Assembly (NCBI GenBank): GCA_965222155.1
Contig: CBDCTH010000012.1
Span: forward strand, 1,984,001 to 2,048,000
DNA from: Gammaproteobacteria bacterium
Lineage (GTDB): Bacteria; Pseudomonadota; Gammaproteobacteria; Eutrophobiales; Eutrophobiaceae
Direction of reading: 5' to 3'
Length of the DNA stretch: 64,000 nucleotides
The position numbers were made by a program, and so were the translations under genes. This document shows positions 43,757 to 55,709 of the stretch, piece by piece; the first letter of the stretch is position 1; each line of letters starts with the position of its first letter. Under the pieces are notes generated by a model, which saw only the letters and a list, made by a program, of their open reading frames with translations, had not been told where the DNA came from and ran no database searches.

Positions 43757-44386
43757 ATGATTCAACTGTTCAACTATCCCAACACGCGCGGCCTCAGGGT
43801 GACCTGGATGCTGGAAGAACTGGAGGCAGACTACGAATTCAACCTGGTTCCAGCGGGCAGCAACGGGTTTGGCTCAGAGGAATATTTAAAAATCAACCCG
43901 GCCGGAAAAGTCCCGGCACTCCGGGACGGGGACCTGTTGCTGACCGAATCCGCAGCCATCGTGACCTACCTGGGCGATAAATTCCCGGAGAAAAAACTGG
44001 TTCCCCGCGCGGGGTCTGCCGCGCGCGCCAAATACAACCAGTGGTGTTACTTTGTGTTGTCGGAACTCGAACAGCCCCTGTGGACCAAGGGAAAACATAA
44101 ATTCATACTGCCCCCGGACAAACGCGTGCCGGCAGTATTCGAAACCGCCGAATGGGAATTTCAAAAAGCATTGAAGATACTCAGCCAGGGGCTGAATGGA
44201 AATAAATTTATCCTTGGAGACACTTTCAGCGCTGCGGATATCCTGATCGGCCACACCTTGTCCTGGGCCCGTACCGCAAAACAACCCGTTGAGATGCAAA
44301 ACGTAACAGACTATGCAGTTTCGGTACTGGGCAGAGAGGCGCTGCAACGAGCCAGGGCCAGGGAAGCGGCATCGAAGGAAGCCTGA
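43757..44386 (+). CDS. Glutathione S-transferase family protein
   Basis: INPAGKVPAL, LTESAAI, FSAADI. Confidence 0.93.
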   Translation: MIQLFNYPNTRGLRVTWMLEELEADYEFNLVPAGSNGFGSEEYLKINPAGKVPALRDGDLLLTESAAIVTYLGDKFPEKKLVPRAGSAARAKYNQWCYFVLSELEQPLWTKGKHKFILPPDKRVPAVFETAEWEFQKALKILSQGLNGNKFILGDTFSAADILIGHTLSWARTAKQPVEMQNVTDYAVSVLGREALQRARAREAASKEA

Positions 44387-44501
44387 GACACCACATTTAT
44401 AAGGGCAACTTTACCTTGCCCACTGCCTTGCCAGTTCGACACTGTGCCTGAATGGTTTCATGCACAGGTAAAAGGACGGAAATCCGGCAAGGAAACCCGC
44501 C

Positions 44502-44642
44502 TCGTCATTCCGGCGTGTGCCGGAATCCAGTGGACAACCTGTCATTTCTTTATAAGGAATTATTTTTTTGACTGGATTTGCATCCTACGCTCCGTTGACG
44601 GCACATCCATGTGCCACTACTCGGCATTCGCCGGAATGACGA
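44502..44642. repeat. CGTCATTCCGGCG...CGCCGGAATGACG repeat (same family as 12118-12216)
   Basis: 14-bp terminal inverted repeat with internal GGAATCCAGT/ACTGGATT motifs. Confidence 0.7.
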
Positions 44643-45048
44643 CACTGAGCATGGCAATGACCGGGGCGACTTCAACCTCCCTCATTCCGAGCAGGTCCAG
44701 CAACATGCCGCCGTCACGCAGGAAAGAACCGGAAATGCTGTGGCCACCGCTCTTTGCGATCAGCTTTAAACCCTGAGCCCGGGCATGGTTGACCGCGGCT
44801 ACGACGTCATCGACGGAATTTGCCTGGACGATTAAATCGGGTCGGCGCGCCGGTTTGGCTACCTGCCATACCAGGCTCTTTCTCCTCGTCTCATAGTCGG
44901 GATGATCGCGACTGATCATGTTCCCTGCGAGCGAGCGTGCATAGGCCCCGCCGGATCGGAAAAAAGTGAACAGCGCTCCCCCGGCCCCGACCAGGCCACG
45001 CAGAAATTGCCTTCGGCAAAAACTATCCAGCGCGGCTTTGAAAATCAT
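44617..45048 (-). pseudogene. Truncated Tat-exported FAD-linked oxidase (PCMH/BBE-like N-terminus)
   Basis: RRQFL Tat motif, PDLIV...DVVAAV, KSGGHS; ends at the repeat after about 135 aa. Confidence 0.75.
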
Positions 45049-45128
45049 GCCGGCAACCCCGTTTCCCGCTACGCCTTACGCTGTATTGACAGGGATGCCG
45101 GCTTCGATCGGAATAACAGTTGTACCGA

Positions 45129-47540
45129 TTAATTAAAATTCCGGCGAAGGCTGACAGACCAGGTTGCCGGCAAGCCGTACACGCCCTCGGTACCATTATT
45201 ATTGGAAAATCCTGTGATGAGATACGCCTCATCGGTCACGTTGCGTCCTGCCGCGGTAATGGACCATACATCGTTGACATCCCGCCAGGTCAGTGAGAGA
45301 TTTAACAGGGTATAGGCGTCTTGTACCAGCAATGGAGTATTTCTGTCGTCATTCGCGACTTTGCTGGTATGGGCCAGGTCAAGCCGCGGTGTCAACGAGC
45401 CCATATCGCCCAGGTCGATAGAATATTGCGCAGCGGCGTTGATGTTCCATTCCGGTGCGTTGATCAGTTGATCATCAATGTCGAAAGCGACACCCTCATC
45501 CAGCTTAGCGTATTCCGCGTCCAGGTAGCCTACGCCGACCTGCAGTAACATTTCGGCTGTAGGCAGCGCGGTCATTTCCACCTCAAATCCCAGGATTTCC
45601 GCCTCTGCCGCATTGACTGTGGACAGGCCGATGGTGCCAGCGCTATCGCTCTCGTCAGAGGTGACCTGCATATCCGTGTAATCGGTGAAAAATACGGACG
45701 CATTCAAGCGCATGCGATTATCGAGCAAGGTGGACTTAAAGCCGCCTTCGTAGACCTTCACGAACTCAGGCCCCGCAACCGGGACTTCACGCTTCGCCGG
45801 AAAGACCCGCTGAGTGAAGGCGCCTGCTTTGAAGCCTTCCGAGTAAGACACGTAAGTCATGAAATCCTCGGCCCACCGGTAAGACAGGTTGACATAGGGT
45901 TGCAACTCACTTGCATTGGAATGGGCAGGCTCCGGTGGCAACACACAGGAACCTTCGGTGTTAGCCGCCGTAAGTGGCGTACCTCGACAGTCGAACGGGG
46001 AGGCAGGTGATATTGACAGTGGAAAAGGGACGCCCCTGTCGATACCAACGTAGGATGCCGGGACAAACTCTTTTTCCTCATCCGTATAACGCACACCTGC
46101 CGTCAGCGATAACTGGCTCGTTATATCAAAGGTGCCCTGGGCAAACACGGCCTTGCTCTCGTTATCTATCGTGCCGCCACTGTCGAATACGGTATTAAAC
46201 GGCAGTTCCACCACATCCAGGTGCTTACCCGTTTCTTTCAGGTAATACAAGCCCACCAGCCATTCCAGGCGATCATCAAAGGCATTGCCCAGCAACTGAA
46301 ATTCCTGGGTGGTCTGTTTTTGCTCATAATCGTTGGCGGTGCGAACAATCACGTGGACCGGCAGCTTCGAATGGCTGGTGTCCCGGGACCAGAAGCCGTC
46401 TTCCACCCGGCGGTGCGCGGTGATGGACTTGAAAGTGAAGTTATCATTGATATCCCACTCAATGGTCCCGCCGACGCCCCAGACATTCAGTTCGGAGTCA
46501 GGGCGCACGGCTACGCCGAAGCGTTCATCCGTCTGTAGTTCCGGTGTTGCGCTGACGTGAGAACTCCAGGTCTTGTAAGGCCCTACGACCCATTGATCAT
46601 TATAACAGTTGTCATTTCCGATCCGGCCCGGGTCCGTGCTGACCGCGAAACCGCCACAGACCGGATCGCCCGATACAAATTGATTATTAATTTGGGGGAA
46701 AAACCCATTTTCCGCCACATCGATCAGGACATTGGGAGCGGGGTTTTCATCGGTGGTGGAATAATCGGCCGTCAAATCCACAGTAATGGCAGCGGAGGGT
46801 GTCCAGCGGAACGCCAGCCGGCCGGAGAGATCTTCGTTATCACCCAGGTCCGGTCCATCTCCCAGGTTTTTCACGTAACCGTCCCGGTTTCTGCTGGAGA
46901 CGGAGATGCTTCCCGCCAGGTTCTCACCCATGGGAACGTTGACATAAGCGTTTACGTCGATACGGTCATAACTGCCGGTCGTCACTTCCGCCCTGCCGTG
47001 GAAGCTGTCGGTCGTCGGCTTTTTGGTGACCACGGAGATAGCGCCGCCGATGGTGTTGCGTCCGAACAGGGTGCCCTGGGGACCGCGTAATACCTCAATA
47101 CGCTCCACGTCCACCGTATCCATGACCTGACCGATGGTACGGGAGATATACACGCCATCCAGGTAAATTCCGACTCCCGGGTCTACCGGCAAAGCCCAGT
47201 CGGCGCTGCCCACACCGCGGATCATGATGATGGCAGCTGAATTACCGGCGGCGATGGGTGCGGTAAAATCGAACACGACGTTCGGCGTAAATTCCCCGAG
47301 GTCGGCAAAATCCACCATGCCCCGTTGTTCTATATCATCAGCCGTAAAAGCGGCGACCGAGATAGGCGTGTCCTGCAGACTCTCTTCGCGCTTGCGGGCG
47401 GTCACTACAATTTCTTCCAGAGCGCCGGCCTGGGCAAGCAGTTCAGTGGTTGCAGTTCCGAGCAGACAGGCAAATAATAAAAGCTGAACAGTGCTGACTG
47501 TCGCTGTTCTTTTTTTGGTTATATTATTGTAATTATACAT
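45129..47540 (-). CDS. TonB-dependent receptor
   Basis: LEEIVVTARKREE, IEVLRGPQGTLFGRN, C-terminal beta strand. Confidence 0.95.
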   Translation of the reverse strand: MYNYNNITKKRTATVSTVQLLLFACLLGTATTELLAQAGALEEIVVTARKREESLQDTPISVAAFTADDIEQRGMVDFADLGEFTPNVVFDFTAPIAAGNSAAIIMIRGVGSADWALPVDPGVGIYLDGVYISRTIGQVMDTVDVERIEVLRGPQGTLFGRNTIGGAISVVTKKPTTDSFHGRAEVTTGSYDRIDVNAYVNVPMGENLAGSISVSSRNRDGYVKNLGDGPDLGDNEDLSGRLAFRWTPSAAITVDLTADYSTTDENPAPNVLIDVAENGFFPQINNQFVSGDPVCGGFAVSTDPGRIGNDNCYNDQWVVGPYKTWSSHVSATPELQTDERFGVAVRPDSELNVWGVGGTIEWDINDNFTFKSITAHRRVEDGFWSRDTSHSKLPVHVIVRTANDYEQKQTTQEFQLLGNAFDDRLEWLVGLYYLKETGKHLDVVELPFNTVFDSGGTIDNESKAVFAQGTFDITSQLSLTAGVRYTDEEKEFVPASYVGIDRGVPFPLSISPASPFDCRGTPLTAANTEGSCVLPPEPAHSNASELQPYVNLSYRWAEDFMTYVSYSEGFKAGAFTQRVFPAKREVPVAGPEFVKVYEGGFKSTLLDNRMRLNASVFFTDYTDMQVTSDESDSAGTIGLSTVNAAEAEILGFEVEMTALPTAEMLLQVGVGYLDAEYAKLDEGVAFDIDDQLINAPEWNINAAAQYSIDLGDMGSLTPRLDLAHTSKVANDDRNTPLLVQDAYTLLNLSLTWRDVNDVWSITAAGRNVTDEAYLITGFSNNNGTEGVYGLPATWSVSLRRNFN

Positions 47541-47639
47541 CTCGTTCCTCGAATTATGTGTTTAGAAAAGAATCTTTACCGTCATCATGGTGATTCGGCC
47601 AGTATACCTTGTATTATATTTATAACAACCTGTATTTAA

Positions 47640-47820
47640 TCAGAAATGTGAATATCCCGCGCCCTCAGGGATATGTTCGGAAGCGTCGTTTCTTATACAG
47701 CTAAGCCCCTGCCCTGCCGTAATTGTGCCGATGCGGTATGCCGGGTGGCCGATGCGTTCCAATGCCTGCTGTTTTGCCGGCGGTACGGAAAAACACAACT
47801 CGTAATCATCGCCGCCGCTG
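47640..47820 (-). repeat. Duplicated 3' end of thiL (att-like direct repeat of 54762-54942)
   Basis: SGGDDYELCF.VPPAKQQ.LERIGHPAYRIGTITA...PEGAGYSHF present in both copies. Confidence 0.92.
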
Positions 47821-47868
47821 GTGTTTTCGACTAACCCCTTATACAACCATCAGAGAGGTCTCGGTGTT

Positions 47869-47877
47869 TGTTATAAT
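47869..47877 (+). promoter_or_regulatory. Candidate extended -10 promoter (TGtTATAAT) for the islet operon
   Basis: Exact TGnTATAAT about 115 bp upstream of the first ATG. Confidence 0.4.
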
Positions 47878-47993
47878 GAATTTTTTACCAGAGAGTTAGG
47901 ATTTAACATACTCAATAGCAGTAACGAAGCAAGTTTTACTGAAAAACAGGATATTATGGAATACTGTTGTATTTTTAATGTGTAGTTACAACT

Positions 47994-48728
47994 ATGTCAT
48001 ACTTTGAGGAAATAAAGGAAGCGTATAAATTGGTCTGTGGTGGTGAGACTTCACAAGCAGCTGTGGGGCAAGCATTACAATACGAAAACTGGCAACATCT
48101 CCACGATAAAATTACCAGGAAGGTTCTTAACCACCCGGATTACCCTCTCCTGGCTGCCGACAGGGAACAACCTATACCAACCTGTTCAGAGTTGGCTCAA
48201 GATTGCCAAATACCGAGAAGTAGCAAAAAAATCAGTCTAGCCTACTCCCTGTATAGATATAGAGTAGAAGTTTCCTCTCCACAGCTTAAAATGATATATG
48301 CCGATGACCTCACAAAACTTTGGAGAAAACTTGAACGAGAACGCATCAAGAAAGTCTGGATTACCACAAATCATTTAGCCCTGCGGTCGGAACGTGATTT
48401 ACATGATTTAGTGTGTCGTTTAGGCTTGTATCATTGGCGAAGGCCTCTGTTGGATACACCTGTCTTTTGCCTGGAATGGCGTAATATAGACTGTGTCAAA
48501 CCTAACGCACTGGATGCTGGGTTAGCATTCTACTTTCATCAAACGCCGGAACAAGCTCCTGGCAGCACGCGAAACCTGGAAACAGGTGAACCGGATATGG
48601 AAGAATGGTTATGTTTAGAGGTCGATAATAATTCGATAAAATGTGTGGCTGGCTGTTTCACCCGCCAAGAAGTAGAATTAAATATGAGCAATTATTTCGA
48701 AAAGAACGCACAAAGGATGAGGGGGTAA
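47994..48728 (+). CDS. Hypothetical protein, possible ADP-ribosyltransferase-like fold
   Basis: LYRY / WITT / RLGL / P..LDAG..F / G.T..L.TG...EEW pattern. The ORF is solid; the fold is inferred. Confidence 0.6.
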   Translation: MSYFEEIKEAYKLVCGGETSQAAVGQALQYENWQHLHDKITRKVLNHPDYPLLAADREQPIPTCSELAQDCQIPRSSKKISLAYSLYRYRVEVSSPQLKMIYADDLTKLWRKLERERIKKVWITTNHLALRSERDLHDLVCRLGLYHWRRPLLDTPVFCLEWRNIDCVKPNALDAGLAFYFHQTPEQAPGSTRNLETGEPDMEEWLCLEVDNNSIKCVAGCFTRQEVELNMSNYFEKNAQRMRG

Positions 48729-48734
48729 TGTTGT

Positions 48735-49739
48735 ATGGATGAGCAACAAATTATCCGACATTTCTTCAAGGATGAGGATTCCGCGATTTCATATATCCAA
48801 AATCGCTTGCTGGGTAACTTCGACGATGCCCCACCGCCAACCGGTGACCGTTTCATCGAAGAATACGCGACGGATATTCTGCAACACCTGGTTTATGACC
48901 TTGAAGATAAATCTATTTTCTGGAATGCCTGTTTCCGGTTATTCAAAGAATGGCGAGACCCTGAGAAAGCTGATCAAGAACATGCGACAGGTCTGAGTGA
49001 ATTAGCCTATTTGATCCGTCAAATTAATCAGAATAATGAAAAAGTATTCAGTGAAGAAAGATATCGCTGGCAAAAAGAACTAGACCCCCAGAATCTCAGA
49101 GTGATCCCATATGTTACTCAAGAAGCAAATTTGGTATACACCCAGAATTTGAGTCTGGTGCATATTTGGAGCCTTTGGCCTAATGATCGATGGTTAAGAC
49201 TATACGAAAATATCCTGAAGGCAAGCGAAGTGAACAACGAAGCTCAATTTGAGCTTATGCTGATTACTATCCAACACATGAAATGGGACGTAATGAAGAC
49301 CAGACAGTTATTCCGGTGGGCCTTGGATCGGGATAACCTGCCGAAAACTTTTTATAACCAGTATATTTTTCACCGTTTATGCGAATGTGGTAATAGCATG
49401 ACCGACACCAGTACTAAGGAACAGAAGATATGCCAGAGCAAGTTAGTTGGCGATATTCTAATAACTCATGACCAGTTGTTCTATAGCTTACCCAAAGAGC
49501 AAAAAGAGGCACTCGGTAAGGCCTTGCTTGAAGCCAGTGAGTTGTTAGATTTGAAAAGTTTTAAATGCCTGGATAAGGGAAAGAGAGCCCTACTGAAGCG
49601 AGAGCTTGATAAACTCGTCCAACCACCTTCTGAAGGGGAAACCTGCATGATTAAATCCAATACTGAAGCCTCGTCCGAGCATAGATTCATGAAAGCAGAT
49701 TATGCCGGGGACGCTGAGGATGGACGATTAGCTGCCTGA
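48735..49739 (+). CDS. Hypothetical, predicted mostly alpha-helical protein
   Basis: 334-aa ORF, 6 nt after ORF1 and 4 nt before ORF3; no motif recognised. Confidence 0.75.
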   Translation: MDEQQIIRHFFKDEDSAISYIQNRLLGNFDDAPPPTGDRFIEEYATDILQHLVYDLEDKSIFWNACFRLFKEWRDPEKADQEHATGLSELAYLIRQINQNNEKVFSEERYRWQKELDPQNLRVIPYVTQEANLVYTQNLSLVHIWSLWPNDRWLRLYENILKASEVNNEAQFELMLITIQHMKWDVMKTRQLFRWALDRDNLPKTFYNQYIFHRLCECGNSMTDTSTKEQKICQSKLVGDILITHDQLFYSLPKEQKEALGKALLEASELLDLKSFKCLDKGKRALLKRELDKLVQPPSEGETCMIKSNTEASSEHRFMKADYAGDAEDGRLAA

Positions 49740-49743
49740 ACAG

Positions 49744-52551
49744 ATGTCTGCTCAATCAACTCAATTCATCTCTTTCTACTCTTACAAAGGTGGAGTGGGA
49801 CGCAGCACAGTGCTTGCCAACCTTGCTTGCAGGCAAGCAATGCAGGGCAGAAAGGTTCTGATTATCGACCTTGATCTCGAGGCACCAGGGCAACACAGTA
49901 GCGGATTGTTTGAAGGGAATCTGGTAGCTGATTCGGCAATAAAAGGGGGGTTTATTGACCTCTGCGAATCCTGGAAAAAACACCGTGAGGAAACGCCTGA
50001 CGAAGTATATGAATGGGATTTGCGAGAATACATGCTGCGAAGCGTTCTTCCGGATACTTTGCCTGGCACCAACAAGGGCGAAATTTTTTTGATGCCTGCC
50101 GGTAAAAAACTGGGTACAGGCTATGTCGAAAAACTGAACAGACTTGATTGGCATGGCTTCTTCTCATTATCTGGAAACAAAGGTTACCAGTTGCTTGCCA
50201 CTTTGAAGTTATACTGTGAGATCGAAGAATTTGATAAAGTATTCATTGATTCAAGGACGGGACTCAGTGACCCCTATTACATGGCAACCTCCTGGTTAAG
50301 CGATACTGTTGTTTGTTTCAGTTTGTTGAACAAGCAGAGTGTTGAAGGGTGCCGTTATACCATGGGGCTTATCCTGACCGAAGACTTCAAGAGTAAATAT
50401 GGTGAAAAACGTGTATTGCCAGTAGCCACCCTGATTCCTCCAACCAGAAATTTTGAGTCTAACAATAGAATAAAAGACATTCTTGCTGCCGAATGGCCCG
50501 AAATTGAGAGCGGTTTCGTCACTGAATTCAGGTATGACGACGCGCTGGCCTTGGAAGAACAAATACTGGTAATTAAAGATGGATTTGAAGAATCGGATTT
50601 CGGTAAGTCATTGAAGGCACTGAATACTGCCCTGGAAACTTCAGCCTCTTATTTGCTGAGCAAAGATCAGGCACGTAAAAACTTCAGAGAAACAGCTTTA
50701 AAAAATCCTTTTCCTAACCTTCGCATCGAGTACTGGAGTCCGATGGAGATTGCCAGTCACTATTCAACCATTTATCCAAGGATTGAAGAACAATTGACAA
50801 GCTTTCAACCTGTTATTGTTTATGGATCTCGAGGGACAGGCAAAACCACCATGGCTCGTTATTTCGATTATGAAACCCAATTAATCATATTTGAGCAAAA
50901 TAATCAACGCATGCCAAAGCCCGAAGAACTTTCTTACCTTGGCTTGTGGATTCGTCAGGACAGCGATTTTCTCAAGGCATTTAATGTGCCTGATGAGGAT
51001 AAACAGAAGAATTACAGTGCCCTTTTTGGCTTGTTCTTCGACATGGTTGTATTGCGCAAAGCACTACACGCTATGCAGGCTTCCGAAGGACTGTCTGGCT
51101 GGGTTAAATCAACCGCAGAGTTATTCCGGGTTTTGTGTCGTGAAATCGGTGTACCAGTTGTTGAGCAATGTGATATGGAAGTTTTTTTGAAGCATTTAGA
51201 AACTCGTTTATACGAAATTCGCGCTTATATCAACAATCCCCATCGCACTGAAATACCGTACCTGTTCCAGGGTAACACCTTAATGAAGCTGTTGGCAGAA
51301 CAACTAAAGAAAAGAGGAAACTTCCATTTTGTGGTATTTGTTGATGAGGTTGAAAATTATGCAAGCCATCAGCAACAAATGCTTAATACACGAGTTAAAC
51401 ATGTTAAAGAGAGTGATGCAGTCACCTATAAGTTGCTTGCACTTAATGATGGAATCAAAACCACATCCACGGACTCAGATAAACAGGAACTGGAGGTAAC
51501 CCACGACTACCGTGCTTATTTTCTGGATGAAGAAATCGAGTTTGATGAATTCAAGAAATGTGCGGAAATTTTGGTGGACCGATATATCTCCAGTTCACCC
51601 CAGTTTCAACATATCGGCCAAGTACAGAAATATCTGGAATATCTTACACCTGAAGAAGAAGCGCGAAAAATCTGCGGAACCCGAAGCAATAAATTACTGA
51701 TTGGCTACCTAGGCAAGCAGCATCACCTAAAGGCGAACCATGCCCTGATACAATGGATGCGGAAAGAACCCAACATACTACGCCAAGTGGTTGCTACTGT
51801 GATGGCTAATCAGGGCAAGAACGCCGATGATGTTGCAAAGAATATGCACTATAACACTTCTACAGCACAAGACTGGTATCACAACTATTCAAGAGGAGCA
51901 TTGTATTGGTTGTGTACCTTACATAGAAAAACAAAAACTTACTCAGGGTTTAACGATATTGCCGGTATTGCCGGTGAAAATATTCGTGTGGTGGTAGATC
52001 TATTTTACGCAATTTTTGAAGAATGGATTAAACAAGAAGAAAGGGGGTTGCCATTCAGCTATGAACTGCAAAGCAGGTGCATCGTGGACATGTCAAGAAC
52101 CTATTTCAAGAAGCTCGACCGGTTTCGGCCCACGGAAAATCAACTGAACCGGTTAGTAGAGCGTCTCGGTAATCTTTTTGCCGCAATACATAAGAGTCCG
52201 CGGCAGGGAGAGCCGGAAATCAATCATTTCTCGGCAAATGGGGACATGGATGACGAGACGGTGAAACACCTGAAGATTTGTCGGCAGGAGAATTTACTGC
52301 GGTGGTTACCAAGCAACAAACAAAAGTCATCAAGCGACTACTTGCCCGATGCTTTCCAGATTAATCCCTGTTTTACCCCGAACTTCGGTATTTCCTGGCG
52401 AAGAAAAAAGAAGCTTACGCTAACGCCCGATGATGTCCATAAACTCTGTTTGGGTACGGATGATGAGTGGAAAAAGATTCACTCTCGCATCGAGCGGCAA
52501 TATCATCGTGGAAGAAACGGTGACAAGTCTCAAGAAAGCCTACTACTTTAA
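49744..52551 (+). CDS. KGGVGR-variant ParA/MinD ATPase fused to an ORC/CDC6- or STAND-like AAA+ ATPase
   Basis: FYSYKGGVGRS, IDLDLEAPG and IDSRTG, then NPF, GSRGTGKT (Walker A) and VFVDEVEN (Walker B). Confidence 0.85.
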   Translation: MSAQSTQFISFYSYKGGVGRSTVLANLACRQAMQGRKVLIIDLDLEAPGQHSSGLFEGNLVADSAIKGGFIDLCESWKKHREETPDEVYEWDLREYMLRSVLPDTLPGTNKGEIFLMPAGKKLGTGYVEKLNRLDWHGFFSLSGNKGYQLLATLKLYCEIEEFDKVFIDSRTGLSDPYYMATSWLSDTVVCFSLLNKQSVEGCRYTMGLILTEDFKSKYGEKRVLPVATLIPPTRNFESNNRIKDILAAEWPEIESGFVTEFRYDDALALEEQILVIKDGFEESDFGKSLKALNTALETSASYLLSKDQARKNFRETALKNPFPNLRIEYWSPMEIASHYSTIYPRIEEQLTSFQPVIVYGSRGTGKTTMARYFDYETQLIIFEQNNQRMPKPEELSYLGLWIRQDSDFLKAFNVPDEDKQKNYSALFGLFFDMVVLRKALHAMQASEGLSGWVKSTAELFRVLCREIGVPVVEQCDMEVFLKHLETRLYEIRAYINNPHRTEIPYLFQGNTLMKLLAEQLKKRGNFHFVVFVDEVENYASHQQQMLNTRVKHVKESDAVTYKLLALNDGIKTTSTDSDKQELEVTHDYRAYFLDEEIEFDEFKKCAEILVDRYISSSPQFQHIGQVQKYLEYLTPEEEARKICGTRSNKLLIGYLGKQHHLKANHALIQWMRKEPNILRQVVATVMANQGKNADDVAKNMHYNTSTAQDWYHNYSRGALYWLCTLHRKTKTYSGFNDIAGIAGENIRVVVDLFYAIFEEWIKQEERGLPFSYELQSRCIVDMSRTYFKKLDRFRPTENQLNRLVERLGNLFAAIHKSPRQGEPEINHFSANGDMDDETVKHLKICRQENLLRWLPSNKQKSSSDYLPDAFQINPCFTPNFGISWRRKKKLTLTPDDVHKLCLGTDDEWKKIHSRIERQYHRGRNGDKSQESLLL

Positions 52552-53495
52552 TGCTCGAACAATATGCTCCTGTTGACCAATCCTACCGGGAAATAGCTGG
52601 TTTACGTCCGTGGAACCTGTTGTTGACCGGAAGCCAAGAAACACTGGAGGCTGAACCCAGGTGCGTGGAACCCATTAAAAAGATTTCCCCTCATTTATCT
52701 GAAAAATATCAGCATATAAAAATTACCCGCCAACCGGATAAAGGGGGCGACGGCAGATTCATTCTTGATAAAGACGGAAAAACAAAGGAAACATCTGCCC
52801 AGGATTTCCACAAAAGCTTTAAAGAAATCATGGAGCGGCCTTGTGAGCAATCCGTTAGTGTGTTGATGGACATAACCAGCCTTGAATTGGATGCAATCCT
52901 TCATCTCCAGCATTATTTTAACCAACCGGATAATGTTCAAAACTTGTTTGCACTGTACACTTCTCCGCAAGATTATCATGGCCGTGACGAGTACAAATTG
53001 CGACTCAACGAGGTTGCTCAGCCGCCCGGCTACATCTCCCTGCGTCTGGATGAAGCCTCTTCTTATCCCCATGTTTTTATTTTGGGGTTTGATACAGGCA
53101 GGGCACTAAGATTCTTTGATCTGTTTGATGAATGGAAGGACAAAGAAAAATACGCCATCATCAGTGAACCATCTTATGTTCCCGACGGTGCCAGGAAAGC
53201 CAGGGATGCCAATCCATGGATTAACGATTTAATGCCTGAACAAATTTTTTCAATCCAAGGATTTGATCCGCTCGAGGTCTACGAAAAGTTACAGCAACTG
53301 TATCAACTCAAAGAACGGCTGGACATCATACCATTGGGACCAAAGCTGATGCTCCTGGGCGCTACCCGATTCTACTTTTCTTTGGCTGAAAAAGAACGCA
53401 ACAATGTTCGTATTTTGTACGATTTTCCACAATCTACTGCTGGGATTACTTCTGGCATAGGTTGGCACTACCTGTTTGACTGCAAAGCATCATGA
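52551..53495 (+). CDS. Hypothetical Rossmann/CARF-like protein coupled to the ATPase
   Basis: LMDITSL, LYTSPQDY, ILGFDTGRA, IIPLGPK; ATG overlaps the ATPase stop codon. Confidence 0.65.
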   Translation: MLEQYAPVDQSYREIAGLRPWNLLLTGSQETLEAEPRCVEPIKKISPHLSEKYQHIKITRQPDKGGDGRFILDKDGKTKETSAQDFHKSFKEIMERPCEQSVSVLMDITSLELDAILHLQHYFNQPDNVQNLFALYTSPQDYHGRDEYKLRLNEVAQPPGYISLRLDEASSYPHVFILGFDTGRALRFFDLFDEWKDKEKYAIISEPSYVPDGARKARDANPWINDLMPEQIFSIQGFDPLEVYEKLQQLYQLKERLDIIPLGPKLMLLGATRFYFSLAEKERNNVRILYDFPQSTAGITSGIGWHYLFDCKAS

Positions 53496-54679
53496 ATCTG
53501 GCACAGCATTTCACGCCGCATCCTCACGCAAGTTTGCTGGTTCAGGAAATGTATCCATTTACCGGCAGCAACAAGGATATAAGTGGGGTTGATCTCGGTG
53601 CGGGGAGTGGCGCACTCCTGTATTCAGCGACCCAAACATGGAAAAAAGCCAGTTTTTTTGGTGTGGATGTTTCCCGGTCTTTATTGAAAACCATAAAACA
53701 ACATTTTCCTTCGGTACAATTCCGTTGCCTGGATTTGCTCAGTACAAGGTCGCTTAAATCAAGAATACTGACAGATTTGGCCGAGTCCCGTGATATTGCC
53801 GTTTGCAATCCGCCATTCCTGAACTACCGTAATGACAAATTTTTTCGTGATCTTTGTCGAACGGTTAATTTACAGGATTGCTGCAAGATGTCAGTCGTTA
53901 CCTCCGACGTCATTTTTCTGCTCCATAATTTACGCTTGCTGAAAAAAGGCGGCACTCTCGGAATCATATTACCCGATGGTTTAATCACGGGGAAGAAGTT
54001 CCAGATATTACGCCAAAGCCTGCTATACAACCATCGGATTGAAGCAGTCATTCAATTACCTGACAATTCGTTCCCTGGAATTGAGGTCAGGACGCACATT
54101 TTAATCTTGCGTAAAGACATGACGCCTGCCGTAAGCGTAAAGGTAATGCAGGCAGGTACCGGTAGCATAAACGGGGAGTTGGAGGTTGAAGCTTCGGCGC
54201 TGGAACAACGAATGGACTACTCATACTGGCACTGGAAGTCGATCACAACAAATGCAAGGACTTTGACGTTGGCAGAGATTGGCGCAGACATTCATCGCGG
54301 TACAAGACCTCGGACATTTTTTGAGAATTCAGGGATCGACTGTGTCCATACCACTGGGTTACCTACAGCCGCCAAGCGTATCAATTTGCGGAGATCAACG
54401 TCCTTGGGATTCAGGATGGCGGAAACACAAGATATATTAACTGCCAGGGTCGGAAAACGTTGTATCGGTAGAGTAATGCTTGTGAATAAAGGGAACCTGC
54501 CAATAACTGACTGCATTTATCGTGTCCGCGTACCAAAACGTTGGATCAACGAAGTATGGCGCTCACTTATTTCTGACAGGGCGCGGGATTGGTTTTCAGC
54601 ACATTCTCACGGCGTTTGTGCGCAGGTAATAAGCAAATCAGATCTATTAAATTTTCCTATTGATTGTTGTGAGAACTGA
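53492..54679 (+). CDS. Amino (N6A/N4C) DNA methyltransferase with C-terminal TRD-like domain
   Basis: AQHFTP (motif X), DLGAGSG (motif I), CNPPF (motif IV), C-terminal DILTARVG...DCIYRVR. Confidence 0.88.
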   Translation: MNLAQHFTPHPHASLLVQEMYPFTGSNKDISGVDLGAGSGALLYSATQTWKKASFFGVDVSRSLLKTIKQHFPSVQFRCLDLLSTRSLKSRILTDLAESRDIAVCNPPFLNYRNDKFFRDLCRTVNLQDCCKMSVVTSDVIFLLHNLRLLKKGGTLGIILPDGLITGKKFQILRQSLLYNHRIEAVIQLPDNSFPGIEVRTHILILRKDMTPAVSVKVMQAGTGSINGELEVEASALEQRMDYSYWHWKSITTNARTLTLAEIGADIHRGTRPRTFFENSGIDCVHTTGLPTAAKRINLRRSTSLGFRMAETQDILTARVGKRCIGRVMLVNKGNLPITDCIYRVRVPKRWINEVWRSLISDRARDWFSAHSHGVCAQVISKSDLLNFPIDCCEN

Positions 54680-54761
54680 TAGCCGTAGTCCGAACGTCTC
54701 GCGAGCAGTGATAATAGAGACGAAAATAGAGGTTGTAGATTACTTTTTCTAGTTTGCTGAT

Positions 54762-55709
54762 TCAGAAATGGGAATATCCCGCGCCCTCAGGGGTATATTC
54801 GGAGCCGTCGTTTCTCATATAGCGCAGTCTCTTCTCTGCCGTAATTGTGCCGATGCGGTATGCCGGGTGGCCGATGCGTTCCAATTCCTGCTGTTTTGCC
54901 GGCGGTACGGTAAAACACAACTCGTAATCATCGCCGCCGCTGAGTACGTAGCGCCACTTTTCCGCAGGCGGACACTCGTTCTCAAGGTATGGGTCGACCG
55001 GAATTGAATCAATATTGAGCACGGCGCCGACGCGGCCGGCATCAAGCAGGTGACCCAGGTCAGCAAGCAGTCCGTCCGAGATGTCGATCATAGCGCTTGC
55101 GATTCCTCGCAGGGAAACCCCTAATCCCACCCGTGGTGTGGGCCTGAGCAAGCGCTTGTGACAATCAGCTTGAGGAGTCCGGCCGGACTTGAGCAGCGCC
55201 AATGCAAAAGCCGCACTGCCTGATGGACCGCTGACATAAATCAAATCATCCGCTTTTACGCCATCCCGCCGCACTTCCCGGCCTTTCGGACACTCCCCGA
55301 TGACCTGGATTGTCACTGAAAGGGGCCCTTTACAGAGATCCCCGCCGACCAGTGAAACCTCGTATTGCCCGGCCAGTTCCGCCAGGCCGCAGGCGAACCC
55401 GTCCAACCAGGCATGGGTCATCTGGTCCTCCGACAGGGTCAGTGCCAGGGTAATCCAGCGCGGCATGGCAGCCATAGCGGCCATATCGCTGAGGTTTACG
55501 GCCAGCGCCTTGTAGCCGATATCGGCAGGGTCCGCATCGGGAAAAAAATGGACGCCGGAAACCAGGCTGTCGGTTGTGGCGACAAGGTGAGAGGCCGCAT
55601 CAACGGCTAAAACCGCCGCATCATCACCCACACCGAGCACGACCCCGCTCCCCCCGGGGGTCAATCCGGCAAAATACTTTTCGATGGCGCCAAATTCAGT
55701 TAATGACAT
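54762..55709 (-). CDS. thiL: Thiamine-monophosphate kinase
   Basis: GVGDDAA, NLSDMAAM, GGD, DISDGL, GGDDYELCFT. Confidence 0.96.
   Translation of the reverse strand: MSLTEFGAIEKYFAGLTPGGSGVVLGVGDDAAVLAVDAASHLVATTDSLVSGVHFFPDADPADIGYKALAVNLSDMAAMAAMPRWITLALTLSEDQMTHAWLDGFACGLAELAGQYEVSLVGGDLCKGPLSVTIQVIGECPKGREVRRDGVKADDLIYVSGPSGSAAFALALLKSGRTPQADCHKRLLRPTPRVGLGVSLRGIASAMIDISDGLLADLGHLLDAGRVGAVLNIDSIPVDPYLENECPPAEKWRYVLSGGDDYELCFTVPPAKQQELERIGHPAYRIGTITAEKRLRYMRNDGSEYTPEGAGYSHF

What the first reader, a model, noticed from the sequence alone, without database searches (positions are those of the whole stretch)
47821..54761. Candidate undescribed defence/conflict system: five-gene islet inserted at thiL
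Seen: five co-directional genes with 6-nt and 4-nt gaps or overlapping stop/start codons (52551, 53492), visibly AT-richer than the flanks, bounded by a duplicated thiL 3' end. The components are an ART-like protein, an unknown helical protein, a ParA(KGGVGR)-ORC/CDC6-like double ATPase, a Rossmann/CARF-like protein and an amino DNA methyltransferase with a TRD-like tail. There is no PD-(D/E)xK nuclease, HsdR helicase, PglZ or DrmA that I can recognise, so it does not fit classical RM, BREX or DISARM. Known: STAND/AAA+ ATPases and methyltransferases are recurring sensor and self-marking parts of anti-phage systems. Inference: a methylation-guarded, ATPase-gated system with an NAD-using effector. 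I do not know this five-part combination from any named system.
Basis: partly seen in the sequence, partly recalled or inferred. Interest (0 to 1): 0.88.

Follow-up and report, generated by a model that had tools for sequence, protein, structure and literature searches.

The report
ParA-fused ORC/CARF/methylase immune cassette
A 6.9-kb, horizontally acquired five-gene cassette at thiL is a distinctive, ParA-fused version of a widespread but untested family of predicted anti-phage/anti-plasmid systems, and it carries two protein families with no known relatives.

Summary
Five tightly coupled co-directional genes (47994-54679) sit in an AT-rich islet bounded by a 181-nt thiL 3' duplication. Four of the five component labels are confirmed. 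"ART-like" for gene 1 is not.

The cassette is not an orphan. All five genes recur in the same order in five other loci: four MAG chromosomes from several phyla and one distant metagenome contig.

Its core is an ORC-CDC6-like AAA+ ATPase (PF24389), a CARF6-like protein and a DNA methyltransferase. This core also occurs in other chromosomes and on 140 plasmid records. There the effector slot holds PRTase-CE, HD-CE or calcineurin-like enzymes.

This cassette differs in two ways. A KGGVGR ParA module is fused to the ATPase. The effector slot holds two proteins of unknown family: g1 (43 representatives among 1.84 billion, no fold match) and g2 (an alpha-solenoid). A controlled fold supports their binding (0.75 against 0.00).

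The nearest named system, HINPO (2026 preprint), fails two of four defining features.

Verdict: a new variant of a computationally known kind of conflict system. The mechanism is inferred only. Interest is moderate to high.

The parts
47640..47820 (-). Displaced copy of the thiL 3' end (left direct repeat of the islet). It lies inside a 68-aa ORF, 47640-47846.
   Evidence: It repeats 54762-54942 over 181 nt at 92%, with 15 mismatches. It hits the thiL TIGR01379 model at positions 258-320 of 320 (E 1.3e-10).
47821..47993 (+). AT-rich leader upstream of g1. A promoter is presumed here but not shown.
   Evidence: The sequence was read. Neither the promoter nor the terminator scan exceeded the shuffled background: 11 promoter-like sites against 13.6 +/- 3.7 in shuffles, and 6 terminator-like sites against 6.8 +/- 2.9.
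47994..48728 (+). g1, 244 aa. A member of a rare, unnamed alpha/beta protein family and the candidate effector. Conserved motifs are ALQYEN, LGLYH, KPxWLDAxLAFYF and HGxTRxLxTGxxGxxEW.
   Evidence: The word-indexed search found 42 proteins among 5.8 billion clusters. The exhaustive HMMER search found 43 representatives among 1.84 billion, all stand-alone and 43-322 aa long. Motifs were read from the alignment. The AF2 model has pLDDT 67.6 and no fold match. It is not a PRTase-CE (hhalign probability 0.08%).
48735..49739 (+). g2, 334 aa. An all-alpha solenoid (ARM/PUF-like) that is the predicted partner of g1. It has a disordered C-terminal tail ending in LAA.
   Evidence: The family has 40 proteins. 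The AF2 model has pLDDT 86.7 and pTM 0.82, with 15 helices. Foldseek gave only weak ARM, PUF and CNOT9 hits (E 0.017-0.1, TM about 0.3). The g1-g2 complex scored 0.75 against a best control of 0.00. 21 of 40 family members end in 'AA'.
49744..50643 (+). g3 N-terminal module: a KGGVGR-variant ParA/MinD-type NTPase. The deviant Walker A spans residues 15-20, followed by D42, D44 and D169.
   Evidence: Hits are NF047398 (E 5.5e-38), AAA_31, CbiA and ParA, and PADLOC PDC-M28B (E 8.8e-26). Invariant residues come from the alignment of 17 fusions. PDB sequence hits are to MinD, Soj and ParA P-loops only.
50704..52551 (+). g3 C-terminal module: an ORC-CDC6-like AAA+ ATPase (residues 321-893) with a basic C-terminal tail. 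Walker A is GSRGTGKT (361-368) and Walker B is D534-E535.
   Evidence: PF24389 matches model positions 1-571 of 571 (E 7.6e-85). 1136 homologues have E <= 1e-5, and all of the best 120 carry PF24389.
52551..53495 (+). g4, 314 aa. A CARF6-like (Rossmann-type) protein and the constant partner of the ORC-CDC6-like ATPase. It is the predicted ligand sensor.
   Evidence: PADLOC CARF6 models hit, best E 3.9e-18. The gene downstream of the ATPase is CARF6-like in 8 of 8 sister loci and on plasmid L021 by PADLOC. On plasmids L020 and L022 this rests on tblastn with g4 and the L021 protein. The nearest Atlas clusters are unnamed hypothetical proteins (score 0.92).
53492..54679 (+). g5, 395 aa. A gamma-class N6-adenine DNA methyltransferase with a C-terminal target-recognition region.
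   Evidence: Hits are PF02384 (E 3.6e-17) and PDLC03285 over residues 1-388 against model positions 12-405 of 413 (E 4.6e-61). PDB relatives are type I HsdM subunits. The NPPF and DLGAGSG motifs were read.
54762..54942 (-). 3' end of the intact thiL gene (54762-55709), forming the right direct repeat.

Best explanation
The islet is a complete, horizontally mobile five-gene anti-phage/anti-plasmid cassette. It is a ParA-fused subtype of the family built on an ORC-CDC6-like AAA+ ATPase (PF24389), a CARF6-like protein and a DNA methyltransferase.

Proposed working (inferred, not shown):
- g5 methylates adenines in a sequence motif and so marks host DNA as self.
- The ORC/Cdc6-like module of g3, together with g4, is the sensor and switch. 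It engages DNA that lacks the mark, or responds to a nucleotide ligand bound by the CARF-like g4, and it oligomerises with ATP.
- The fused ParA module then coats or tethers the foreign DNA, acts as a second NTP-dependent switch, or both.
- g1, an enzyme-like protein held by the alpha-solenoid g2, is the terminal effector. It occupies the slot that sister systems fill with nucleotide-targeting PRTase-CE, HD-CE or calcineurin-like enzymes. Its release would arrest growth or abort infection.

Shown here by computation: the domain identities of g3, g4 and g5; the conserved five-gene synteny; the cassette boundaries; the recurrence of the core with interchangeable effectors; and model support for a g1-g2 complex.

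Inferred: every functional step.
For: 1. Unit and mobility. All five genes are syntenic in L001-L004. These are MAG chromosomes labelled Arenicellales, Nitrospirales (two) and Poriferihabitaceae. Amino-acid identities are g1 51-66%, g2 59-66%, g3 75-79%, g4 67-72% and g5 74-85%. The same order holds in the distant metagenome contig L042 (g1 24%, g3 33-44%, g4 43%, g5 41%). That makes 6 of 6 loci with a ParA::ORC fusion that I could examine.
- The flanks examined are unrelated transport or metabolic genes in most cases. Exceptions are an AAA_16/ankyrin protein left of the L003 cassette and a type III RM pair right of the L004 cassette. L002's flanks were not scanned.
- The cassette is AT-richer than its flanks in all 6 loci.
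- g3 was found in 1 of 23 genomes of the genus, G000 only.
- In relatives G002, G003 and G004, thiL abuts the gene that lies at window 43757-44386.

2. Core family. PF24389 was found in 9 of 401 genomes of the phylum sample and in 0 of 14 control genomes.
- In the 8 other systems examined (L034-L041; G203, of the same genus as G408 with a match at the same contig coordinates, was not examined), the downstream gene is CARF6-like in 8 of 8.
- The upstream gene is PRTase-CE in L034, L035 and L040, HD-CE in L036, and a calcineurin-type phosphoesterase in L037, L038 and L039.
- A DNA methyltransferase is adjacent in 5 of 8. Its class varies: N6_N4, N6, C5, D12 and a type II model.
- Plasmid operons in Cupriavidus, Enterobacter and Klebsiella run methyltransferase, PRTase-CE, ORC-CDC6-like, then CARF6-like. 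On the Cupriavidus plasmid the methyltransferase hits the same model, PDLC03285, as g5. g4-like genes occur on 140 plasmid records.

3. Both NTPase modules keep their Walker motifs across 17 diverse fusions.

4. Literature. Passages of Li, Burroughs and Aravind 2026 (10.64898/2026.10.19.760177, section 22 read) predict that ORC-CDC6 senses foreign DNA and that ParA multimerises in ParA+ORC immunity systems. A 2026 preprint (10.64898/2026.01.15.699771, section 5 read) states that Calcineurin-CE domains sit in the effector position of predicted immune systems.

5. g1-g2 complex. The score was 0.75 (runs 0.75, 0.69, 0.75) against a best control of 0.00. That mark was reached by 58 of 80 solved complexes and 2 of 110 mismatched pairs. 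The runs share at least 54% of contacts and the partner's pLDDT is at least 82. I supplied my own alignments, so these counts hold only roughly.
Against: - No experiment exists for this cassette, nor, as far as I could read, for any PF24389/CARF6 system.
- 3 of 8 sister systems showed no adjacent methyltransferase (L038, L039, L040). L038 is cut by a contig end. Self-marking therefore cannot be obligatory for the family.
- g1 has no recognisable catalytic fold. Its AF2 model is only moderate (pLDDT 67.6).
- The predicted g1-g2 interface lies in g1's variable, low-confidence segment. Only 2 of 28 interface residues are conserved, against 8.1 expected. On g2, 21 of 40 are conserved against 16.2 expected (P 0.07).
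- The window itself shows no defence-island neighbours. The flanks are thiL and a TonB-dependent receptor.
- Among the flanks of other loci that I scanned (L001, L003, L004, L042), only L004 has a recognised defence neighbour, a type III RM pair.
- No nuclease, cyclase or other known effector or signal generator was detected.
Confidence: 0.6

Rival explanations
1. [quoted passage not shown] On this reading g1 and g2 are unrecognised HEPN and iNTase parts, and g4 and g5 are accessory genes.
For: HINPO combines a ParA with an ORC-CDC6/STAND ATPase, and the two are sometimes fused. g3 is such a fusion. HINPO's partner domains are described as rapidly evolving, and g1 and g2 are likewise divergent.
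Against: - g3's ParA starts at residue 6, with KGGVGR at 15-20, so there is no N-terminal iNTase domain.
- All 43 g1 relatives are stand-alone proteins of 322 aa or fewer and are never fused to ParA.
- g2 is a 15-helix solenoid without a conserved Rx4-6H motif. Its fold hits are ARM and PUF proteins, not HEPN.
- The preprint's main text never contains 'methyl' and mentions CARF only once, in general discussion.
- Its supplements could not be read.
Confidence: 0.12
2. It is two independent modules that happen to lie side by side. One is an ordinary type II restriction-modification pair, with g5 as the methyltransferase and g4 (or g1) as an unrecognised endonuclease. The other is a separate ParA-ORC module.
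For: g4 and g5 overlap by 4 nt, as R-M pairs often do. g5 matches a type II methyltransferase model over its full length. Many restriction endonucleases are undetectable by sequence.
Against: - g4's family always follows the ORC-CDC6-like ATPase, with or without a methyltransferase. This holds in 8 of 8 chromosomal systems, on three plasmids and on two phage-labelled contigs.
- Relative to the other genes, the methyltransferase changes position. It is first on the plasmids and in L034, L036, L037 and L041, and last in L035 and in the window. Its class also changes.
- g3 and g4 overlap by 1 nt.
- g4 matches CARF6 profiles, not nuclease profiles.
Confidence: 0.1
3. It is a maintenance module of a mobile element: ParA partition, an Orc/Cdc6-type replication initiator and an orphan methyltransferase. 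It is not an immune system.
For: ParA and Orc1/Cdc6 are classic segregation and replication-initiation proteins. The core family is common on plasmids. The islet is horizontally acquired.
Against: - The cassette has no integrase, relaxase, Rep, ParB or centromere-like repeat array.
- In the examined chromosomes it sits mostly between housekeeping genes as a bare five-gene unit.
- The PF24389 ATPase is regularly coupled to PRTase-CE, HD-CE or calcineurin-type enzymes, which have no role in partition.
- The ParA is the KGGVGR variant. Its nearest PADLOC model is a defence candidate, PDC-M28B.
Confidence: 0.06
4. One reading: g1 is an ADP-ribosyltransferase-like, NAD-using effector, gated by the ATPase and guarded by methylation.
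For: g1 keeps several invariant or near-invariant polar residues across 31 divergent relatives (N32, K169, T192, E204), which suits an enzyme. NAD-targeting effectors are common in ParA systems according to Li et al. 2026.
Against: - No ART, TIR, SIR2 or other NAD-related family was hit by any of 31 family members in Pfam.
- No PDB or viral fold match was found.
- An R-S-E or H-Y-E triad is not conserved in the family alignment. R88 and S132 of the close set are not kept in the wide set.
Confidence: 0.07

Closest known systems
Operons of an ORC-CDC6-like ATPase (PF24389), a CARF6-like protein, a DNA methyltransferase and a 'CE' nucleotide-targeting effector. Examples are Cupriavidus basilensis pRK1-1 (NZ_CP062805), Enterobacter pRHBSTW-00975_2 (NZ_CP055884) and Klebsiella IncR plasmid OW848875.
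   Same: The ATPase family is the same (E 7.6e-85 here, 3e-102 on the Cupriavidus plasmid). The best-hitting CARF6 model is the same as on the Cupriavidus plasmid (PDLC01920). The methyltransferase model is the same as on that plasmid (PDLC03285). Gene coupling is equally tight.
   Different: Those operons have no ParA module. Their effector is PRTase-CE, or HD-CE or calcineurin-like in chromosomal relatives, rather than g1+g2. Amino-acid identity is only about 23-29%. I found no name for this family in any text I could read. The Pfam names probably derive from Nicastro et al. 2023 (NAR 51:11479). That attribution is recalled; the paper was not held.
HINPO system (Li, Burroughs and Aravind, bioRxiv 10.64898/2026.10.19.760177; sections 18 and 22 and search passages read)
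   Same: It is a predicted immunity system that couples a ParA NTPase to an ORC-CDC6/STAND AAA+ ATPase, sometimes as one polypeptide. The proposed logic is also alike: ORC senses DNA, ParA multimerises and a back-up effector follows.
   Different: This cassette has no iNTase domain on ParA and no recognisable HEPN. It has extra CARF6-like and methyltransferase genes, which the main text does not mention.
Methylation-linked multi-gene defence systems (type I/II R-M, BREX, DISARM, MADS)
   Same: All combine a self-marking N6-adenine methyltransferase with one or more P-loop ATPases. g5 is related to HsdM, mad2 and PglX at the domain level.
   Different: No HsdR/HsdS, PglZ/BrxC, DrmA/B/C or mad1/mad3-7 component was found. 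The mad8 and mad2 hits are partial and cover only the P-loop or methyltransferase core (E 0.0011 and 3.3e-15).
PADLOC candidate PDC-M28 (guilt-by-embedding candidates, Payne et al. 2024 preprint; passages read, candidate tables in supplements not seen)
   Same: The ParA module of g3 matches PDC-M28B (residues 4-237, E 8.8e-26).
   Different: Only the ParA domain matches. No PDC-M28A equivalent was detected in g1, g2, g4 or g5. The preprint's main text does not mention PDC-M28.
CARF/SAVED-based cyclic-oligonucleotide signalling (type III CRISPR ancillary modules, CBASS)
   Same: g4 belongs to a family that PADLOC files under the CARF superfamily (CARF6), so a nucleotide-ligand sensor is plausible.
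   Different: The cassette has no Cas10, CD-NTase, SMODS or other cyclase, and no CRISPR array. The ligand, if any, is unknown.

Membership tests
PF24389 / CARF6-like / methyltransferase conflict systems (unnamed family) | ORC-CDC6-like AAA+ ATPase of Pfam PF24389 | tested here: met
   g3 residues 321-893 match model positions 1-571 of 571, E 7.6e-85.
PF24389 / CARF6-like / methyltransferase conflict systems (unnamed family) | CARF6-like gene immediately downstream of the ATPase | tested here: met
   g4 hits PDLC01920 at E 3.9e-18 and overlaps g3 by 1 nt. The comparators show the same arrangement in 8 of 8.
PF24389 / CARF6-like / methyltransferase conflict systems (unnamed family) | Adjacent DNA methyltransferase | tested here: met
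   g5 is present. The feature is frequent but not universal in the comparators: 5 of 8 chromosomal systems and 3 of 3 plasmids.
PF24389 / CARF6-like / methyltransferase conflict systems (unnamed family) | Upstream nucleotide-targeting effector (PRTase-CE, HD-CE or calcineurin-like) | tested here: not met
   g1 and g2 have no Pfam hit. g1 against a PRTase-CE profile gave hhalign probability 0.08%. The slot is instead filled by two unknown families.
HINPO | ParA NTPase of the ConB2 'conflict' clade | tested here: inconclusive
   A ParA of the KGGVGR variant is present. Clade placement needs the authors' tree or alignments, which were not available.
HINPO | Inactive Pol-beta nucleotidyltransferase domain fused N-terminally to ParA | tested here: not met
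   The ParA P-loop is at residues 15-20. In the aligned relatives the match starts at query residue 1 (L001-L004) or 4 (L042).
HINPO | Upstream PA-HEPN1 gene | tested here: not met
   g2 is an alpha-solenoid of 15 helices without a conserved Rx4-6H motif. g1 is alpha/beta. A very divergent HEPN cannot be excluded formally.
HINPO | ORC-CDC6/STAND AAA+ ATPase downstream of, or fused to, ParA | tested here: met
   g3 is a fusion of the two.
Classical type II restriction-modification | Cognate restriction endonuclease next to the methyltransferase | tested here: not met
   No nuclease family was found in g1-g4 by Pfam, PADLOC or NCBIfam. A novel endonuclease fold cannot be excluded.
BREX / DISARM / MADS | Signature proteins (PglZ and BrxC; DrmA/B/C; mad1-8) | tested here: not met
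   Only domain-level methyltransferase and P-loop hits appeared (mad2 E 3.3e-15, mad8 E 0.0011, PglX E 4.1e-5).
CARF-dependent cyclic-oligonucleotide signalling | A signal-generating cyclase in the locus | tested here: not met
   No cyclase or polymerase family was found in the five proteins.
   There is no family, PDB or fold match. The model is only moderate (pLDDT 67.6), so the test is not final.

The most novel reading that the evidence does not exclude
g1 founds a new effector-enzyme fold. It is held inactive in the groove of an ARM-like partner, g2, whose ssrA-like C-terminal tail makes it a labile, protease-timed safety catch. The cassette as a whole would be a distinct immune mechanism. 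A methylation-guided ORC/Cdc6-CARF sensor would drive ParA polymerisation on unmarked DNA and release a toxin. Such a mechanism has not been described for any defence system.
Probability: 0.22. Interest if true: 0.82.

Novelty: new variant of a known kind. Interest (0 to 1): 0.62.

Why it matters
The family built on the ORC-CDC6-like ATPase and the CARF6-like protein is common. It was found in 9 of 401 sampled genomes and on 140 plasmid records, 128 of them Klebsiella. In the texts I could search, no experimental study of it turned up.

This cassette is compact (6.7 kb of coding sequence) and self-contained. It has been moved between phyla as a unit, which makes it a good test article for the whole family.

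It also links two lines of computational work: ParA-based immunity and nucleotide-targeting 'CE' effector systems. In addition, it offers two protein families with no known relatives, g1 and g2, as a candidate new effector-regulator pair.

If methylation does gate the system, it would add a new architecture to the short list of self-marking defences (R-M, BREX, DISARM, MADS, Dnd/Ssp).

Tried and rejected
- The islet has no E. coli match.
- g1 is not ART-like. Pfam, PADLOC, NCBIfam, PDB sequence, Foldseek against PDB and BFVD, and the Atlas all gave nothing. A Pfam scan of 31 family members gave one ALOG hit at E 0.0026, which I treat as noise.
- g1 is not a divergent PRTase-CE (hhalign probability 0.08%).
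- g2 is not recognisably HEPN or HD. No motif is conserved, and the only fold hits are weak solenoid matches.
- PDB profile searches for g4 gave nothing below E 0.1. For the ORC part of g3 there was no hit at E <= 0.01.
- The promoter and terminator scans were at shuffle background.
- The metagenome scan returned 80 loci. 79 matched the ParA part, reaching at most query residue 386. By tblastn and my own HMMs, none of them holds the ORC module or a g1, g2, g4 or g5 relative. They say nothing about HINPO.
- Conservation of the predicted g1-g2 interface was not enriched.
- Sequencing runs: no RNA holder was listed, so there is no information on expression.
- Contigs of four runs were laid. Two hold identical pieces. 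Two hold diverged copies, in run X7 in two contigs spanning 47791-54617. These are contigs only and were not used as evidence of habitat or abundance.
- Papers not held: Makarova et al. 2020 (CARF classification), Burroughs and Aravind 2020, Burroughs et al. 2015 and Nicastro et al. 2023.
None returned a paper describing a methyltransferase + ORC-CDC6-like + CARF operon or this five-gene set.
- Supplements were closed for Li et al. 2026 and Payne et al. 2024. They may list this architecture.

Full report
**Observation**

The window holds five co-directional ORFs on the + strand:
- g1, 47994-48728, 244 aa
- g2, 48735-49739, 334 aa
- g3, 49744-52551, 935 aa
- g4, 52551-53495, 314 aa
- g5, 53492-54679, 395 aa

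They are joined by a 6-nt gap, a 4-nt gap, a 1-nt overlap (TAATG) and a 4-nt overlap (ATGA). The cassette has GC 0.439, against 0.541 and 0.538 in the flanks and 0.529 for the genome.

The stretch 47640-47820 repeats the last 181 nt of thiL (54762-54942) at 92% identity, with 15 mismatches. The repeat starts exactly at the stop codon and ends sharply. thiL itself (54762-55709, minus strand) is intact.

**Insertion history**

In three same-genus genomes (G002, G003, G004), thiL directly abuts the homologue of the gene at window 43757-44386. The window's genome has two extra pieces there:
- A 3.25-kb segment with a TonB-dependent receptor (45129-47540). Its orthologues lie elsewhere in relatives.
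- The thiL fragment plus the islet.

g3 was found in 1 of 23 genomes of the genus, G000 alone. Neither repeat copy is clearly closer to the thiL of relatives: 75.8% against 75.3% to L011. The cassette contains no integrase or transposase.

**Components**

g3 is a double NTPase.
- Its N-terminal module is a KGGVGR-variant ParA (NF047398, residues 6-205, E 5.5e-38). The nearest PADLOC model is the defence candidate PDC-M28B (E 8.8e-26).
- Its C-terminal module is an ORC-CDC6-like AAA+ domain that matches PF24389 end to end (residues 321-893, E 7.6e-85).
- Across 17 fusions with 34-64% identity to g3 in the alignment, the key residues are conserved. The ParA P-loop residues (G16, G17, G19, R20; K15 nearly so), D42, D44 and D169 are kept. 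So are the ORC Walker A (G361-T368) and Walker B (D534, E535).

g4 matches eight CARF6 profiles of PADLOC (best E 3.9e-18). It has no Pfam or NCBIfam family.

g5 is a gamma-class N6-adenine methyltransferase.
- Motif I is at residues 33-40 and NPPF is at 106-109.
- It hits PF02384 (E 3.6e-17).
- It matches the type II methyltransferase model PDLC03285 over its full length (E 4.6e-61).
- Its PDB relatives are HsdM subunits.

**g1 and g2**

Both belong to small families without a name.
- The word-indexed search found 42 proteins for g1 and 40 for g2 among 5.8 billion clusters.
- An exhaustive HMMER search with the g1 profile found 43 representatives among 1.84 billion. All are stand-alone proteins of 43-322 aa.
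- The wide g1 alignment keeps the motifs ALQYEN, LGLYH, KPxWLDAxLAFYF and HGxTRxLxTGxxGxxEW. L143, G144, T192, L195 and E204 are invariant.

The g1 model is moderate (pLDDT 67.6, pTM 0.65). It matches nothing in PDB or BFVD (best E 0.78 and 0.58). The ART label therefore has no support. g1 is also not a PRTase-CE.

The g2 model is good (pLDDT 86.7, pTM 0.82). It is a 15-helix solenoid with only weak ARM, PUF and CNOT9 matches (E 0.017-0.1, TM about 0.3). No Rx4-6H or HD motif is conserved.

A controlled co-fold supports g1-g2 binding.
- The score was 0.75 (runs 0.75, 0.69, 0.75), against a best control of 0.00.
- The mark was reached by 58 of 80 solved complexes and 2 of 110 mismatched pairs.
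- At least 54% of contacts were shared between runs, and the partner's pLDDT was at least 82.
- I supplied my own alignments, so these counts hold only roughly.

In the model, g1 residues 88-115 and 147-155 lie in the concave face of g2. Against this, the g1 interface residues are poorly conserved (2 of 28, against 8.1 expected). Those of g2 are not significantly enriched (21 of 40, against 16.2 expected; P 0.07).

The disordered C-terminus of g2 ends in 'AA', mostly LAA, in 21 of 40 family members. The likeness to ssrA-type ClpXP degrons is my recollection and my inference.

**The cassette elsewhere**

A genome scan with g3 found four MAG chromosomes, labelled Arenicellales, Nitrospirales (two) and Poriferihabitaceae. 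All five genes are present in the same order. Identities are g1 51-66%, g2 59-66%, g3 75-79%, g4 67-72% and g5 74-85%.

A metagenome scan with a profile of diverse fusions returned one further full-length locus, L042, with g3 at about 40% identity. It has the same five genes in the same order, confirmed with my own profiles: g1 E 1.1e-80, g2 E 2e-11 and g4 E 1.4e-58.

In the loci whose flanks I scanned (L001, L003, L004, L042), most flanking genes are unrelated. They include a Na/H exchanger, acyl-CoA enzymes, IlvD and a Na/Pi transporter. An AAA_16/ankyrin protein lies left of the L003 cassette, and a type III R-M pair lies right of the L004 cassette. In all six loci the cassette is AT-richer than its flanks.

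The five genes are therefore the whole unit, and the unit moves between phyla.

ParA::ORC fusions of this length are numerous. 1136 proteins had E <= 1e-5 among the 7999 candidates scored. All of the best 120 carry PF24389, and by my count 107 also list a ParA-type Pfam family.

**The wider family**

Translated searches of plasmids found g4 relatives on 140 records: 128 Klebsiella, 7 Serratia, 3 Enterobacter and 2 Escherichia. They also found ORC-module relatives on Burkholderia, Cupriavidus and Moraxella plasmids, among others.

Three annotated regions show one operon type: N6-methyltransferase, then PRTase-CE (PF24390), then an ORC-CDC6-like ATPase without ParA (PF24389), then a CARF6-like protein.

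A PF24389 search of 401 genomes of the phylum found it in 9, and in 0 of 14 control genomes. I examined 8 further systems. G203, of the same genus as G408 with a match at the same contig coordinates, was left out.
- The downstream gene is CARF6-like in 8 of 8.
- The upstream gene is PRTase-CE in 3, HD-CE in 1 and a calcineurin-type phosphoesterase in 3.
- In the eighth, a second system in the window's own genome, a protein-kinase fragment sits in front of an N-terminally extended ATPase.
- A methyltransferase is adjacent in 5 of 8. Its class varies: N6_N4, N6, C5, D12 and a type II model.

Two contigs labelled as an Acinetobacter phage also carry the ATPase and CARF6-like pair.

The constant core is thus the ATPase plus the CARF6-like protein. 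A methyltransferase is usually present. The effector position is interchangeable, and so is the N-terminal position on the ATPase: nothing, a kinase, or ParA.

**Literature**

The nearest named system is HINPO (Li, Burroughs and Aravind, bioRxiv October 2026; sections 18 and 22 and search passages read). It comprises an upstream HEPN, a ParA with an N-terminal inactive nucleotidyltransferase, and an ORC-CDC6/STAND ATPase that is sometimes fused. It is predicted to sense foreign DNA through ORC and to act through ParA multimers, with HEPN as back-up.

This cassette meets the ParA and ORC features but not the iNTase or HEPN features. The preprint's main text contains no 'methyl' at all and mentions CARF only in passing.

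The names PRTase-CE, HD-CE and Calcineurin-CE belong to work on nucleotide-targeting effectors. A 2026 preprint on PUA-Cal-HAD cites Nicastro et al. 2023 for the initial analysis of Calcineurin-CE domains. It states that they sit in effector positions of predicted immune systems.

I could not obtain Nicastro et al. 2023 or the CARF classification paper. The Pfam accessions are consecutive: PF24389, PF24390 and PF24391. This makes it likely, but unverified, that the ATPase-plus-effector operons were described there.

None of my ten paper searches returned a description of the five-gene set or any experiment on the family.

**Mechanism (inferred)**

By analogy with self-marking defences, and from the predicted roles above, I propose these steps:
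- g5 marks host DNA.
- The ORC/Cdc6-like module with g4 is the sensor and switch, acting on unmarked DNA, a nucleotide ligand, or both.
- The ParA module adds ATP-dependent DNA coating or a second switching step.
- The g1-g2 pair is the effector module, with g2 as holder or inhibitor.

The weak points are these:
- The methyltransferase is missing from 3 of 8 sister systems.
- The activity of g1 is unknown.
- No signal generator was found.
- There are no experimental data.

**Verdict**

The feature is real, complete and horizontally mobile. It is a new variant, ParA-fused and carrying two unknown protein families, of a computationally recognised but untested kind of conflict system.

Noticed in passing
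Outside the window: G000 contig C12:1759689-1764429 (locus L041, 3690-8430): The same genome carries a second system of the family. It comprises a type II-like methyltransferase (386 aa), a 136-aa ORF with a protein-kinase N-lobe that overlaps the start of a 703-aa ORC-CDC6-like ATPase (PF24389 from residue 175), and a 385-aa CARF6-like protein. The kinase may be a frameshifted N-terminal fusion. PADLOC has a CARF6 'CARF_STK_AAA' model that matches it.
   Followed up: partly
window 44387-47639: This segment holds a TonB-dependent receptor (45129-47540, minus strand) and small ORFs. It lies between the displaced thiL fragment and the gene that abuts thiL in relatives. Its orthologues (74-86% nt identity) lie elsewhere in relatives G001, G004, G005, G007 and G011. 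This points to a second, separate rearrangement at this site.
   Followed up: partly
Plasmid loci L020 (NZ_CP055884), L021 (NZ_CP062805), L022 (OW848875): A four-gene operon (N6-methyltransferase, PRTase-CE, ORC-CDC6-like ATPase, CARF6-like protein) is common on enterobacterial plasmids. g4-like genes occur on 140 PLSDB records, 128 of them Klebsiella and 129 predicted conjugative. The genes are annotated only as hypothetical proteins.
   Followed up: partly
window 49707-49739 (g2 C-terminus) and the g2 family, P0043-P0082: 21 of 40 g2 homologues end in 'AA', mostly LAA, on a disordered tail. This resembles an ssrA-type degron.
   Followed up: partly
L004 15104-19266: In one Nitrospirales MAG the cassette is followed directly by a type III restriction-modification pair (an N6_N4 methyltransferase and a ResIII helicase). 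This was the only recognised defence neighbour among the flanks I scanned.
   Followed up: no
Phage records CAKLQF020000018.1 and CAKLQH020000016.1 (about 64983-67700): Two contigs labelled Acinetobacter phage MD-2021a carry an ORC-CDC6-like gene followed by a CARF6-like gene. These were the only 2 matching records among the 50,697 phage records searched.
   Followed up: no
window 47791-54617, as laid from coded runs X5 and X7: Contigs of other public runs hold copies of the whole cassette that are roughly 10% diverged at the nucleotide level, alongside runs with identical pieces. Related variants of the cassette therefore exist in other samples.
   Followed up: no
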